In this document: in pieces, positions 1 to 5,246 of the stretch
Position numbering within the stretch: position 1 is the first letter of the stretch
How the letters are laid out: every line of letters starts with the position of its first letter
Assembly (NCBI RefSeq): GCF_006345805.1
Contig: NW_021830004.1
Coordinates: 1 to 5,587 of the forward strand
Length of the DNA: 5,587 bases
Source: Octopus sinensis
Taxonomy: Eukaryota
Direction: 5' to 3'
Translations under genes and position numbers: made by a program
Notes under the pieces: model-generated
The model's input: only the letters and a program-made list of their open reading frames with translations
The model's database searches: none
What the model was told of the DNA's origin: nothing

Positions 1-165
1 TATATAAATCAAAATATGCAACAAGGATATACTTGTGCTTATTTTGATTTTGATCACCTTACTTTGAAATTGTATGTATAATACCGTACTAAATTCTAGT
101 GCCTCAACTTAAGTACCATATTCATCTGAATCAAAATTTTTGCTGAACTCATCTACCATACTTAG

Positions 166-176
166 TATATATATAT

Positions 177-269
<93 letters not shown>

Positions 270-283
270 TATATATACATATA
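166..283. repeat. (TA)n microsatellite
   Basis: Nearly pure TA dinucleotide run with a few interruptions, directly upstream of the SINE 5' end. Confidence 0.97.
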
Positions 284-293
284 GGCGCAGGAG

Positions 294-347
294 TGGGTGC
301 GTGGTAAGTAGCTTGTTTACCAACCACATGGTTCCGGGTTCAGTCCC
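294..347 (+). promoter_or_regulatory. Degenerate internal RNA Pol III type 2 promoter of the SINE (A box 294-304, B box 337-347)
   Basis: TGGGTGCGTGG and GGTTCAGTCCC at tRNA-like spacing. Copy 2 has TGGCTATGTAG (5065-5075, minus) and an identical GGTTCAGTCCC (5022-5032, minus). Confidence 0.65.
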
Positions 348-445
348 ACTGCGTGGCATCTTGGGTAAGTGTCTTCTACTATAGCCTCGGGCCCGACCAA
401 AGCCTTGTGAGTGGATTGGTAGACGGAAACCGAAAGAAGCCGTCG

Positions 446-447
446 TA

Positions 448-486
<39 letters not shown>

Positions 487-517
487 GCGTGTGTGTGTGT
501 GTTTGTGTGTCTGTGTT
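446..517. repeat. Compound (TA)n(TG)n microsatellite inside SINE copy 1
   Basis: Seen directly. The matching tract lies at the same internal position in copy 2 (about 4846-4922), so it is part of the SINE body. Confidence 0.92.
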
Positions 518-1416
518 TGGTCCCCTAGCATTGCTTGACAACCGATGCTGGTGTGTTTATGTCCCCGTTACTTAGCGGTTCAGCAAAAGAGACCAATAGA
601 ATAAATACTGGGCTTACAAAAGAATAAGTCCCGGGGTCGAGTTGCTCGATTAAAGGCGGTGCTCCAGCATGCCGCAGTTAAATGACTGAAACAAGTAAAA
701 GAGTATATATATATATGATAATAAGATAAAGTACACTTGTAATTTTGATAAAATATATTCATGGAGAAGGGGCTGTGTGTAGAAATGTTGGTAAACATCA
801 TTTTATGGGCATTTGCCGAGTGTTTTGTATAGACATGTGGTATGTGCTACTATAACCGACTGTGTATCTACTTGAATATACTTGTATTTATTCATTTATC
901 GTACAGATGTACCTTGTTTTAGTTATATGTGCCTTTGTATGTCTTCAGACATATATGTTTGAGAATTTGTGTAAGAATTTTGGTTGCGTTTTCTCATTCA
1001 TGAACATTCTCACATTGCATTTTTAACTCATATACTAAGTATGACGACGTATATTTATGTATTTTGAAGGAAAGGTAGATTGGTGGGGCTGAAAAGTATT
1101 ATAAAGTATACGTTTACTAAGGTTCTGTAGTGGAGCTTGTAAAAGATTGTTCGGGGAAGTAGATAGAAGATATGATTATATAAAATGAATAGTATTTCCT
1201 CCTCAACAAAATCTAGAGAGGAAGCCATCAAAAGCCATCAAAACCTCATTTAAACCAATCTATCATAGTAAAGATCACACGCCAATCCCAACCCATGTGT
1301 TAGCAGGCAAGCGGCAAAGAAGAGTGCTTATAGACTACAACACAGCTGAGCTACACGTGTTGAGTTTTATGTAAGTTTAAAGAAAGGCGAGCCCACACAC
1401 AATATAAGTTCTTTTG

Positions 1417-1495
1417 CACATACACATATACGTATATATATATATGCATGTATGTATATATATATAGATATATATAATATATATATATATATATA
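1417..1495. repeat. (CA)/(TA)n microsatellite, left flank of the hammerhead array
   Basis: TA-rich dinucleotide run ending where the array starts (GTGACGTATTTTTGCC at 1496). Confidence 0.93.
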
Positions 1496-1649
1496 GTGAC
1501 GTATTTTTGCCATTTCAATATGGCTAACCCCTAAGGGTGGATGCTTACTGTAGTTTTTAGCCCCAGGAGGACACACTCCTCCAGATGGCCATAGACACAC
1601 TATCTGTGTCCTGTCAGTATTTGCAAAGGGAAGTCATCCTTCCCGTCTT

Positions 1650-1718
1650 CACTTATGATACACACGGACTCGAGTTTCGAGGTATTGACCTCTCGTCAGC
1701 GTGTGACAATCATAGTTG
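1650..1718 (-). ncRNA. Type I hammerhead ribozyme, intact core
   Basis: Minus strand reads CACACG-CTGACGA-GAGGT CAAT ACCTC-GAAA-C TCGA G-TC-CGTGTG. Predicted cleavage between 1667 and 1666. Confidence 0.93.
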
Positions 1719-1999
1719 TCGCCGAGAATTAGATTTCCTTCACAAATACTTATACTTTTTCCAGCGCCCACTGTCGCTGATATTGAAAAAGTGAAATCAA
1801 ACAATGATAAATATCAAAGTGAGTTTATACAGTAGCGGTAACACATCGTGACGTATTTTTGCCATTTCAATATGGCTAACCCCTAAGGGTGGATGCTACT
1901 GTAGTTTTTAGCCCCAGGAGGACACACTCCTCCAGCTGGCCATAGACCACTATCTGTATCCTGTCAGTATTTGCAAAGGGACGTCATCCTTCCCGTCTT

Positions 2000-2067
2000 C
2001 ATTATAGATACACACGACTCGAGTTTCGAGGTATTGACCTCTCGTCAGCGTGTGACAATCATAGTTG
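2000..2067 (-). ncRNA. Type I hammerhead ribozyme with a 1-nt deletion at the cleavage site / start of stem I
   Basis: CTGACGA (2042-2048, minus), stem II and GAAAC TCGA GTC are intact. It reads GTCGTGTG instead of GTCCGTGTG, and distal stem I has further indels. Confidence 0.8.
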
Positions 2068-2376
2068 TCGCCGAGAATTAGATTTCCTTCACAAATACTT
2101 ATACTTTTCCCAGCGCCCACTGTCGCGATATTGAAAAAGTGAAATCAAACAATGATAAATATCAAAGTGAGTTATATACAGTAGCGGTACACATCGTGAC
2201 GTATTTTTGCCTTAGGGGTTAGCCATATTGAAATGGCAAAAATACGTCACGATGTGTTACCGCTACTGTATATAACCCTTTTGATATTTATCATTGTTTG
2301 ATTTCACTTTTTAATATCAGCGACAGTGGGCGCTGGAAAAAGTATAAGTATTTGTGAAGGAATCTAATCTCGGCGA

Positions 2377-2446
2377 CAACTATGATTGTCACACGCTGAC
2401 GAGAGGTCAATACCTCGAAACTCGAGTCCGTGTGTATCATAAGTTG
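2377..2446 (+). ncRNA. Type I hammerhead ribozyme, intact
   Basis: Stem I CACACG(2390-2395)/CGTGTG(2429-2434), then a TGT/T internal loop, ATGAT/ATCAT and CAACT/AGTTG. Core CTGACGA 2396-2402. Stem II GAGGT/ACCTC with loop CAAT, 2403-2416. GAAA 2417-2420. Stem III within palindrome ACTCGAGT 2420-2427. GUC cleavage after 2428. Confidence 0.95.
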
Positions 2447-2723
2447 AAGACGGGAAGGATGACTTCCCTTGCAAATCCTGACAGGACACAGATAGTGTGT
2501 CTATGGCCAGCTGGAGGAGTGTGTCCTCCTGGGGCTAAAAACTACAGTAGCATCCACCCTTAGGGGTTACCATATTGAAATGGCAAAAATACGTCACGAT
2601 GTTTACCGCTACTGTATATAACTCACTTTGATATTTATCATTGTTTGATTTCCTTTTCAATATCAGCGACAGTGGGCGCTGGAAAAAGTATAAGTATTTG
2701 TGAAGGAAATCTAATTCTCGCGA

Positions 2724-2792
2724 CAACTATGATTGTCACACGCTGACGAGAGTTCAATACCTCGAAACTCGGTCCGTGTGTATCATAAGTTG
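2724..2792 (+). ncRNA. Type I hammerhead ribozyme, variant copy
   Basis: CTGACGA 2743-2749 and GAAA 2764-2767 intact. Stem II has G>T at 2753. The stem III loop is TCG (one A missing, palindrome broken). GUC ends at 2774. Confidence 0.85.
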
Positions 2793-3074
2793 AAGACGGG
2801 AAGGATGACTTCCCTTTGCAAATACTAACAGGACACAGATAGCGTGTCTATGGCCAGCTGGAAGATTGTGGTCCCTCCTGGGCCCTAAAAACTACAGTAG
2901 CATCCACCCTTAGGGTTAGCATATTGAAATGGCAAAAATACGTACGATGTGTTACCGCTACTTATATAACTCACTTTGATATTTATCATTGTTTGATTTC
3001 ACTTTTTCAATATCAGCGACAGTGGGCGCTGGAAAAAGTATAAGTATTTGTGAAGGAAATCTAATTCTCGGCGA

Positions 3075-3144
3075 CAACTATGATTGTCACACGCTGACGA
3101 GAGGTCAATACCTCGAAACTCGAGTCCGTGTGTATCATAAGTTG
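3075..3144 (+). ncRNA. Type I hammerhead ribozyme, intact
   Basis: Same sequence as 2377-2446: CTGACGA 3094-3100, GAAA 3115-3118, cleavage after 3126. Confidence 0.95.
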
Positions 3145-3334
3145 AAGACGGGAAGGATGACTTCCCTTGCAAATACTGACAGTGACACAGATAGTTGTCT
3201 ATGGCCAGCTGGAGGAGTGTGTCCTCCTGGGGCTAAAAACTACAGTAGCATCCACCCTTAGGGGTTAGCCATATTGAAATGCAAAAATACGTCACGATGT
3301 GTTACCGCTACTGTATATAACTCACTTTGATATT

Positions 3335-3337
<3 letters not shown>

Positions 3338-3506: not shown

Positions 3507-3535
3507 TTTTTATTGTTTCAATCATTTGACTGCGG
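3507..3535 (-). mobile_element. Detached 3' terminus of SINE copy 2
   Basis: Minus strand reads CCGCAGTCAAATGATTGAAACAATAAAA, matching the copy 1 tail CCGCAGTTAAATGACTGAAACAAGTAAAA (672-700). This is the part missing from 4681-5085. Confidence 0.85.
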
Positions 3536-3910
3536 GGATCTAGTTATTTTTCATTCGCAAAATAATTCAGTTTTTAAAAGAAAGTAAAAAATATGAAAAT
3601 TGGCTATAATAATGTGGTCTTCCAGTTACATTGCTATCAAGGTATGATGTTATAGAATTTGATGTTACAGAGGTTTATATATGATGTTACAGTGGTTTAA
3701 AAATCGGAAAAACTCTGTATTTTGAGCCAATAGTAAGACAGAAATTTTCTGCGGTTAGTGGATTGGTGTCAACTTTGAGGTTGTACACTGTGAAATTTAT
3801 AGTTTCACGTCTGTGACATGACCTGTTCATTGTAGATTTCAAAATAAACAGAAATGCTTAATAAAATCGATATGTATCATTTTCCTGTTTCTTTTGTCTC
3901 CTTATTGATT

Positions 3911-4017
3911 GTATGTTTTTATTATTTTTTAATTTATCTTTATATATTTGTCTACATGTTTTTATTATTTTTTTAATTTGTTGTATTAATATATTTGTCT
4001 GTATGTTTTTAATTTAT
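3911..4017. repeat. Degenerate AT-rich ~43-47-bp tandem repeat (about 2.3 copies)
   Basis: ATGTTTTTA at 3913, 3956 and 4003; the first two continue TTATTTTTT(T)AATTT...ATATTTGTCT. Confidence 0.7.
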
Positions 4018-4141
4018 GCGTATTTCAATATTATGTATGCCTGTCATGTATTTGTGTACATCTTTAATATATAAGTGCGTGTGAATGTATGTATTCATAA
4101 ATAATTTTATATGTATATTAATGTATAATGTATTCATGCGC

Positions 4142-4680: not shown

Positions 4681-4883
4681 GACTGCGGCCATGCTGGAGC
4701 GCAATCTTTAGTCGAGCAAATAAGCCCAGAACTGGGTAAGCGTAGTACTTATTCTATCGGTCTCTTTGGCCGAACCGCTAAGTTACGGGCACGTAAACAA
4801 AACAGCATCAGTTGTCAAGCAATGTTGGGGGGGGACAATCACAGGTACATAAATATATACACACACACATACACACGTGTATG

Positions 4884-4923
<40 letters not shown>

Positions 4924-5085
4924 GACGGGCTTCTTTCAGTTTCCATCTACCAAAACTACTCACAAAGCTTTGGTTGGCCCAAGGCTATAGTAGAAGACAC
5001 ATGCCCAAGGTTTCATGCAGTGGGACTGAACCCAGAGCCATGAAGTTGGTAAGCAAGCTACTTACTACATAGCCACTGCTGCGCT
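4681..5085 (-). mobile_element. tRNA-derived SINE copy 2 (main body, interrupted near its 3' end)
   Basis: Reverse complement is colinear with 284-679: A/B boxes, GTGTCTTCTACTATAGCC, GGAAACTGAAAGAAGCCCGTCG, internal microsatellite, CTTAGCGGTTC, GCTCCAGCATGGCCGCAGTC. Confidence 0.88.
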
Positions 5086-5086
5086 T

Positions 5087-5185
5087 GTATATATATACTA
5101 TACATATGTATGTGGGGGTAGGTGTGTGTATGTGGTATATGTGTGTGTACATATATATGTATCTCTCTCTCTCTCTTCTCTCTCT

Positions 5186-5246
<61 letters not shown>
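5087..5246. repeat. Compound (TA)/(TG)/(CT)n/(TA)n microsatellite
   Basis: Seen directly; (CT)n about 5162-5195 followed by (TA)n. Confidence 0.94.

What the first reader, a model, noticed from the sequence alone, without database searches (positions are those of the whole stretch)
2196..2250. Head-to-head inversion creates a ~715-bp-arm palindrome with a 23-nt spacer and CC microhomology
Seen: the minus-oriented block ends ...GTATTTTTGCC (2211) and the plus block begins CCTTAGGGG... (2210), sharing CC. Arms 1496-2211 and 2235-2945 are reverse complements around unit-derived spacer TTAGGGGTTAGCCATATTGAAAT. Established: PLE insertions often carry an inverted 5' segment, and microhomology junctions mark template switching or twin priming. 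Inference: the junction records the retrotransposition mechanism and supports PLE-type mobilisation. Read-through from either direction would meet sense hammerheads and also fold into long dsRNA, a possible substrate for ADAR or siRNA pathways.
Basis: partly seen in the sequence, partly recalled or inferred. Interest (0 to 1): 0.75.

Follow-up and report, generated by a model that had tools for sequence, protein, structure and literature searches.

The report
Head-to-head retrozyme with two fixed ends
This palindrome is one copy of a small protein-free repeat with a predicted self-cutting RNA motif; such copies often sit back to back in TA repeats with one arm ending at each of two fixed sites, which likely records a Penelope-type enzyme copying the RNA from both cut DNA strands, and the 23-base spacer is just where two randomly truncated copies were joined.

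Summary
The palindrome is there as described: arms match at 687 of 727 columns, with a 23-nt spacer and a shared CC. It is one insertion of a 353-nt type I hammerhead repeat (non-LTR retrozyme; 683 exact core matches genome-wide) in a (TA)n tract.

The inversion is common: 29 of 58 motif-ascertained loci have one. In 40 of 40 junctions with canonical outer ends, one arm ends at unit 10-19 and the other at 56-66 (the Penelope 'tail'). Inner breakpoints are independent, so the spacer is not a fold-back loop. CC alone is chance-level (16%), but microhomology is enriched family-wide. The two arms share subfamily and rare variants.

Best reading: a Penelope-type RT/endonuclease primes both target strands at two fixed RNA sites, and end joining fuses the truncated cDNAs. 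Self-priming and L1-style twin priming fit poorly.

Not shown: independent reads for this junction, the partner element, RNA circles, dsRNA processing. Inverted copies and tails are known for Penelope elements; the one-of-each rule was not found in three paper searches. This scan found the same pattern before on other DNA of this genome.

The parts
1433..1495 (.). Left (TA)n target tract
   Evidence: TRF period 2, 32 copies
1496..2211 (-). Left arm: two units of the 353-nt repeat plus 16 nt. Its 5' (inner) end is at unit position 1 and its outer 3' end at position 16 ('S' end), joined directly to (TA)n
1661..1705 (-). Type I hammerhead motif (predicted), left arm outer unit
   Evidence: Rfam Hammerhead_1 32.2 bits, E 3.6e-5, under the gathering score of 34
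2010..2053 (-). Type I hammerhead motif (predicted), left arm inner unit
   Evidence: Rfam Hammerhead_1 25.5 bits, E 0.006
2210..2211 (.). 2-nt microhomology (CC) at the head-to-head junction
   Evidence: chance of 2 nt or more is 15.9% for random break pairs
2212..2234 (+). 23-nt 'spacer' = unit 331-353; the unpaired stretch left because the right arm's 5' end lies 25 nt upstream of the left arm's
   Evidence: offsets across 40 junctions are uniform
2210..3337 (+). Right arm: 3.2 units. Its 5' (inner) end is at unit position 329 and its outer 3' end at position 58 ('L' end), joined directly to (TA)n
2390..2434 (+). Type I hammerhead motif (predicted); predicted cut after 2428 (unit 198); 2-bp helix III inside an 8-nt palindrome
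   Evidence: Rfam 32.2 bits; motif positions
2737..2780 (+). Hammerhead motif of the second plus unit, with a stem II mismatch and a 1-nt gap (perhaps sequencing error)
   Evidence: alignment; core start at 2743; not listed by Rfam at E<=1
3088..3132 (+). Type I hammerhead motif (predicted), third plus unit
   Evidence: Rfam 32.2 bits
3296..3337 (+). 'Tail': unit 17-58, the terminal extension present on the right end only
   Evidence: tail described for PLEs in PMC8557442 and PMC11167929
3338..3463 (.). Right (TA)n / (TATG)n tract

Best explanation
The palindrome is one insertion of a non-coding 353-nt hammerhead repeat in a (TA)n tract, whose two back-to-back arms end at the family's two fixed sites; it was likely made by a borrowed Penelope-type RT/endonuclease priming cDNA from both cut target strands, with the two truncated cDNAs likely fused by microhomology-assisted end joining. 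Proposed steps: (1) the endonuclease cuts both strands of (TA)n (inferred); (2) one 3' end primes at unit ~16-19 and the other at ~58-65 of the same template, in a coordinated way (the end rule is shown, the priming is inferred); (3) each RT runs a random distance, through the ribozyme cut site and over several units (shown as independent breakpoints; a monomeric circle as template is inferred); (4) the two cDNA ends are joined through 0-5 nt of microhomology or with a short unit-derived insert (junction pattern shown; the repair pathway is inferred). The 23-nt spacer is the offset between the two stop points and has no role of its own.
For: 89 sources were parsed: the window plus 88 loci. They gave 52 head-to-head junctions, 50 after dropping 2 within-locus duplicates. 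29 of 58 loci picked only by the hammerhead core motif have such a junction, as do 26 of 39 top-BLAST loci. 40 of the 50 have both outer ends at canonical sites, and all 40 pair one S end with one L end (p 9e-13 against a coin toss); these ends run into (TA)n or TA-rich tracts. Offsets between the two 5' ends: 6 of 40 within 30 nt, 7.0 expected by permutation. Microhomology of 2 nt or more: 19 of the 36 junctions without an insert, against 15.9% by chance (p 3.6e-7; 19 of all 50, p 1.3e-4). 14 of 50 have inserts, and all 8 inserts of 9 nt or more hold an 8-20 nt match to the unit (no shuffle control for this). The two arms agree at 38 of 38 derived subfamily sites in 45 arm pairs (shuffled mean 18%, max 42%), and share rare variants in 12 of 45 (shuffled max 1). 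15 rare variants are fixed in every unit of 11 of 47 multi-unit loci, and subfamily sites are mixed within a locus in only 3 of 67 cases, as expected from a monomer bottleneck. Only 1 of 100 5' ends lies within 3 nt of the ribozyme cut. Literature: a purified PLE protein cuts and extends both strands, prefers AT-rich DNA and starts RT at two internal sites that bracket the tail (PMC11167929 main text). The genome holds open RT + GIY-YIG frames of 775-780 aa.
Against: No autonomous partner was identified: none of the 50 fetched GIY-YIG stretches (partly overlapping places; 150 of 5,029 candidates were scored) has a terminus homologous to the unit. 10 of 50 junctions have at least one outer end elsewhere and were left out of the 40. 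40 of 89 sources have no inverted arm of 20 nt or more, and these are skewed to S ends (32 S, 7 L, 1 other), which the model explains only by assuming the L-primed product is often lost. [quoted passage not shown] Variant sharing could also come from two identical RNAs of one source locus or from gene conversion. 19 variants are present in only part of a locus's units, some with period 2 or 4, which a pure monomer circle does not give. Target-site duplications cannot be read in (TA)n. The window contig is error-rich.
Confidence: 0.7

Rival explanations
1. Self-priming or fold-back template switch: the first cDNA (or an antisense template) folds back at a palindrome and copies itself, the 23-nt spacer being the hairpin loop. 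This is the first reader's 'template switching' and the model proposed for rotifer Penelopes.
For: PMC3846280 (passages) infers self-priming from palindromes at inverted junctions. A few junctions here are near mirror images (offsets 0, 1, 9, 11). Arms share variants. 31 of 40 pairs are compatible by length.
Against: Near-zero offsets are no more frequent than chance (2 of 40 within 5 nt, 1.4 expected; 6 of 40 within 30 nt, 7.0 expected). In 9 of 40 pairs neither arm can be contained in the other. It does not explain why the copied arm would always stop at the other fixed site.
Confidence: 0.08
2. L1-style twin priming on one linear RNA: the 3'-primed RT stops where the internal primer sits, giving non-overlapping arms with an internal deletion.
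For: Gives a head-to-head layout with junction microhomology (PMC2837659 passages). On a tandem transcript the primers could sit in different units.
Against: The L arm's 5' end lies within 10 nt of the S site in 3 of 40 cases and the S arm's within 10 nt of the L site in 2 of 40, with 2.4 expected for each. Both outer ends are fixed, there is no poly(A), and arms overlap over whole units.
Confidence: 0.07
3. Dual priming by two separate RNA-protein complexes, one per strand, from the same source locus; S or L is set by the geometry of the cut or by the order of events rather than by one shared RNA.
For: Explains overlapping arms without strand displacement, and identical variants if one source locus is active. 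Dual priming was proposed for L1 (PMC2837659). Sequence data cannot tell one RNA from two identical RNAs.
Against: Independent complexes should sometimes give S/S or L/L pairs (0 of 40) and sometimes mix subfamilies (0 of 38 sites discordant). It needs an extra asymmetry.
Confidence: 0.12
4. Assembly or read artefact (fold-back chimera) at this locus.
For: Short unplaced contig, third-highest indel rate of 89 sources.
Against: Flanks are not mirrored, the ends follow the family's S/L rule, and the same architecture occurs at many loci on chromosome-scale contigs.
Confidence: 0.03

Closest known systems
Metazoan non-LTR retrozymes (PMC7229834, passages read; bioRxiv 10.64898/2026.07.22.740005, parts 1-3 of 5 read)
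   Same: Non-coding tandem units of a few hundred bases (353 nt here; 353-nt constructs in mussel and axolotl), one type I hammerhead per unit, dispersed monomers to multimers, and a short helix III as in amphibian dimer-acting ribozymes.
   Different: The word 'inverted' does not occur in the main text of PMC7229834, and the preprint parts read do not describe head-to-head arms or paired fixed ends. Cleavage and circles are shown there but not here. pLTR homology to a PLE was shown for Xenopus but was not found for this family.
EN+ Penelope-like elements: partial tandems, inverted 5'-truncated copy, 30-40 bp tail, (TA)n bias (PMC8557442, passages; PMC3846280, passages)
   Same: Inverted 5'-truncated copy at the 5' end, tail on one end, microsatellite target, microhomology joins.
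   Different: No ORF here. The tail is 42-46 nt. Junctions are not enriched for palindromes. The tail is not 'optional at either end': in two-armed insertions it is on exactly one arm (40 of 40).
PAc (Anolis Poseidon) in vitro mechanism (PMC11167929, main text read)
   Same: Both strands cut and extended, AT-rich target, two internal RT start sites bracketing the tail, hammerhead cleavage not needed for insertion.
   Different: That work reports no strand difference in start site and does not resolve how the insertion is completed. The genomic data here imply per-insertion pairing of the two sites and end-to-end joining.
L1 twin priming and dual priming (PMC2837659, passages)
   Same: Two cDNAs primed from opposite strands and joined head to head with microhomology.
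   Different: No poly(A), both primer sites fixed, arms overlap over whole units, and the first arm does not stop at the second primer.

Membership tests
Metazoan non-LTR retrozyme | Non-coding tandem unit of about 150-450 bp | tested here: met
   353-nt unit; no frame over 93 aa overlaps the array
Metazoan non-LTR retrozyme | Type I hammerhead in each unit | tested here: met
   Rfam Hammerhead_1 in 4 of 5 full units, 25.5-32.2 bits, below the gathering score of 34; the core starts are present in all 5
Metazoan non-LTR retrozyme | Dispersed multi-copy family | tested here: met
   683 exact core matches, 0 for the reversed control; copies mostly 97-100% identical
Metazoan non-LTR retrozyme | Self-cleavage of the RNA | not testable with these tools
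   The monomer MFE fold is not the hammerhead fold, and a two-molecule fold pairs the helix III palindromes; this is prediction only
Metazoan non-LTR retrozyme | Expressed as linear and circular monomer RNA | tested here: inconclusive
   No RNA holder on record; the laid runs are contigs whose RNA nature is a guess. Locus-wide fixed variants hint at a monomer bottleneck
PLE-type insertion | Inverted 5'-truncated copy at the 5' end | tested here: met
   Window plus 48 of 88 loci
PLE-type insertion | 30-40 bp tail at one end | tested here: met
   Ends at unit 16-19 versus 58-65, a tail of about 42-46 nt
PLE-type insertion | AT-rich or microsatellite target | tested here: met
   (TA)n or TA-rich sequence at nearly all canonical outer ends (read by eye, not counted)
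PLE-type insertion | Homology to the pLTR of an autonomous PLE of the same genome | tested here: inconclusive
   None among 50 fetched GIY-YIG stretches; only 150 of 5,029 candidates were scored
Autonomous PLE | RT + GIY-YIG ORF | tested here: not met
   No such ORF in the window
L1-style twin priming product | First arm ends where the internal primer annealed; arms do not overlap | tested here: not met
   3 of 40 and 2 of 40 against 2.4 expected
siRNA or ADAR substrate locus | Small RNAs or A-to-I editing over the arms | not testable with these tools
   Only contigs could be laid

The most novel reading that the evidence does not exclude
The inverted copy and the tail of Penelope elements are one event. 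A dimeric RT/endonuclease holds a single (probably circular) RNA at two sites ~42-46 nt apart, gives one site to each target strand, and both RTs roll along the same template; end joining then fuses the cDNAs. This family's hundreds of young copies are a ready read-out of that rule and argue against the published self-priming explanation of PLE head-to-head repeats. As a side effect, each inverted insertion carries its own antisense and is predicted to mask its ribozymes in read-through RNA.
Probability: 0.45. Interest if true: 0.68.

Novelty: new member of a known kind. Interest (0 to 1): 0.42.

Why it matters
How Penelope-like elements make their tandem, inverted and tail structures is stated as an open question (PMC8557442; PMC11167929). 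A strict one-of-each end rule, with independent inner breakpoints and arms from one template lineage, narrows the possible mechanisms and gives sharp predictions for the existing in vitro system. It also links animal retrozymes to PLE machinery by insertion anatomy rather than by co-occurrence. The window itself is an ordinary copy; the value lies in the family statistics.

Tried and rejected
1) Independent support for this junction. Contigs of 4 public runs laid on 2120-2330 show no listed piece that bridges it. A hole proves nothing, and the insertion may be private to one individual. One contig in X2 carries another head-to-head joint that matches locus L071 exactly over 44 nt, but it has only 28 letters on the shorter side (the tool asks for 31) and X2 may be the assembly's own sample, so it is a weak hint. 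A second joint, in X1 (side 27), matched none of the 89 sources.

2) Empty allele. The left flank is single-copy and the right flank is a common repeat, so no pre-insertion site was found.

3) Expression. No RNA holder is listed. Four runs guessed to be RNA cover the unit and the unit-unit joint, but they are contigs, may be DNA, and cannot tell a circle from a tandem. Not used as evidence.

4) Autonomous partner. A Pfam accession recalled from memory was not in the library. The GIY-YIG search gave PLE ORFs but no shared terminus. A shared 18-24 nt AT-rich word near some PLE loci (E 0.13-0.74) was judged chance or another repeat family. PLEs next to the unit in L080, L088, L109 and L159 look like neighbours in shared TA tracts or later rearrangements.

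5) Template-jump scars at the ribozyme cut. 4 indels in 226 at position 198 against a mean rate of 0.5%: too weak, and next to a CC run.

6) A conserved stem around the S site. An 8-bp stem is kept in 6 relatives, but only one of its pairs changes on both sides and the covariation term is unfavourable: a lead only.

7) Rfam MIR6217 (97 bits, under the gathering score of 110) at 2084-2362 is rejected as a generic long-hairpin match.

8) A look-up of earlier findings by sequence returned nothing.

9) Supplements were not read for any paper; Fig. S2 of PMC11167929 and the preprint's tables may bear on the end-pairing novelty claim.

Full report
Observation. The window is the whole of contig C6475 of a 2.72-Gb genome; a cephalopod host is my guess and appears in titles of earlier scan notes, but no call established it. 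Between two TA tracts lie 2.0 units on the minus strand (1496-2211) and 3.2 on the plus strand (2210-3337). Rfam finds a type I hammerhead in 4 of the 5 full units, just under the curated score. No frame over 93 aa overlaps the array. The contig's copies carry 1.7% indels against 0.5% elsewhere, so their differences are probably mostly error.

Family. The hammerhead core occurs exactly 683 times in the genome, with 0 for the reversed control. I fetched 39 loci from the best BLAST hits and 49 more, so as to hold all 58 loci behind the first 100 listed motif matches. With the window that makes 89 sources, parsed against one natural 353-nt copy in both orientations. 29 of the 58 motif-picked loci and 26 of the 39 BLAST loci have a head-to-head junction. 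The only 2 tail-to-tail adjacencies are neighbouring or duplicated insertions separated by (TA)n.

Outer ends. The 3' ends fall at unit 16-19 (S; 10-15 in three arms) or 58-66 (L), then enter TA-rich DNA. Of 50 distinct junctions (2 duplicates dropped), 40 have both outer ends canonical, and all 40 pair one S with one L. The other 10 have an end elsewhere, mostly in multi-piece junctions. The window is S left, L right. Among the 40 sources without an inverted arm of 20 nt or more, 32 end at S, 7 at L and 1 elsewhere. The S-to-L stretch is what the literature calls the PLE tail, and in vitro it lies between two RT start sites (PMC11167929).

Inner junction. The two 5' ends are unrelated: 6 of 40 lie within 30 nt, with 7.0 expected. 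The window's offset of 25 nt, hence its 23-nt spacer, is an ordinary draw. Fold-back copying cannot produce 9 of 40 pairs, and L arms do not stop at the S site (3 of 40; 2.4 expected), which L1-style twin priming would predict. Microhomology is in excess: 19 of the 36 insert-free junctions have 2 nt or more, against 15.9% by chance; mean 1.8 against 0.7. 14 of 50 have inserts, and the 8 longest each hold an 8-20 nt piece of the unit, 4 of them found within 40 nt of the junction (no shuffle control). This pattern resembles polymerase-theta end joining (own knowledge).

Template. Both arms come from one template lineage: 38 of 38 derived subfamily sites agree in 45 arm pairs (5 junctions with an arm under 40 nt left out; shuffled mean 18%), and 12 of 45 pairs share rare variants (shuffled max 1). 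In 47 loci with three or more units over a site (5 loci with two insertions left out), 39 variants are fixed in all units, 19 are partial and 111 are singletons; 15 fixed ones, in 11 loci, are rare elsewhere. Arms read through the ribozyme cut (1 of 100 5' ends near it). A monomeric circle copied by rolling RT fits this. Gene conversion, or two identical RNAs, would also fit, and period-2 or period-4 variant patterns in L042, L044, L082 and L109 need dimeric templates or DNA-level duplication.

Mechanism. The simplest account is double target-primed reverse transcription by a PLE protein, with one strand primed at S and the other at L, random truncation and end joining. Both-strand cutting and extension, AT preference and a predicted dimer are reported for the Anolis element. 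The genome holds open RT + C-terminal GIY-YIG frames of 775-780 aa, with a cysteine linker of the kind described for Neptune and Nematis. No partner sharing the unit's ends was found, so PLE mobilisation is inferred from anatomy.

RNA consequences. A read-through RNA is predicted to form a very long duplex that buries 2 of 3 plus-strand or 2 of 2 minus-strand hammerhead cores. It would then not release a monomer, which needs two cuts; transcripts starting inside the plus block could. Editing, siRNA and expression could not be tested.

Is this junction real? The flanks are not mirrored and the ends obey the family rule, so a fold-back chimera is unlikely. No independent read spans it.

Comparison and novelty. 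Retrozymes (PMC7229834; preprint 10.64898/2026.07.22.740005) and the inverted-copy-plus-tail anatomy of PLEs (PMC8557442, PMC3846280) are published. Three full-text searches listed no paper stating the per-insertion S/L pairing; I saw only listings for most hits, subscription journals are not covered, and no supplements were read. I formed this reading before looking at earlier scan notes; several of them report the same two-site pattern for this or sister families on other DNA of this genome. They are not independent evidence. Verdict: a real but ordinary member of a known kind, whose family statistics make an open mechanistic question testable.

Noticed in passing
window 163-678 and 4682-5246: Inverted match of 74% over 574 columns between the two flanks: two separate copies of a common composite repeat (SINE-like, from recall), not a mirror of the junction.
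   Followed up: partly
window 3535-4130: Copy of another dispersed repeat, 73-81% identical to many places (801 candidates, 40 scored); type not determined.
   Followed up: no
L042 3278-6967; L044; L082; L109: Variants recur with period 4 (L042) or 2 (L044, L082, L109) along the arrays, suggesting multimeric templates or DNA-level duplication.
   Followed up: partly
L047, L101, L087; L041, L091: Whole insertions duplicated in tandem with identical junctions (L047, L101, L087), and two different insertions in the same or adjacent TA tracts (L041, L091).
   Followed up: no
L109 100-3176; L080 1330-3118: A frameshifted PLE-like RT element cut off inside its endonuclease abuts a retrozyme arm that ends at unit 163 (L109); a 98% identical 5'-truncated copy starts about 40 nt from an S end across (TA)n (L080).
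   Followed up: partly
L084 5900-6390; L099 6208-6400; L050 3532-3700; L159 5439-5772; L173 3040-3418: Diverged sister families (71-90% where measured) that end at the L-equivalent site in TA; L084 and L173 are also head to head.
   Followed up: partly
L176 2810-3300: An apparently unrelated AT-rich element with the same back-to-back layout in (TA)n and unequal outer ends.
   Followed up: no
L160 174-3875 and ~5519: A PLE with a 479-aa frame upstream of and overlapping the 781-aa RT/EN frame, and a hammerhead-like motif about 1.6 kb downstream in a separate repeat.
   Followed up: no
L040 3159-3170: A 12-nt inverted stub ending at the S site: very short second arms exist and may be hidden among 'single-arm' loci.
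   Followed up: partly
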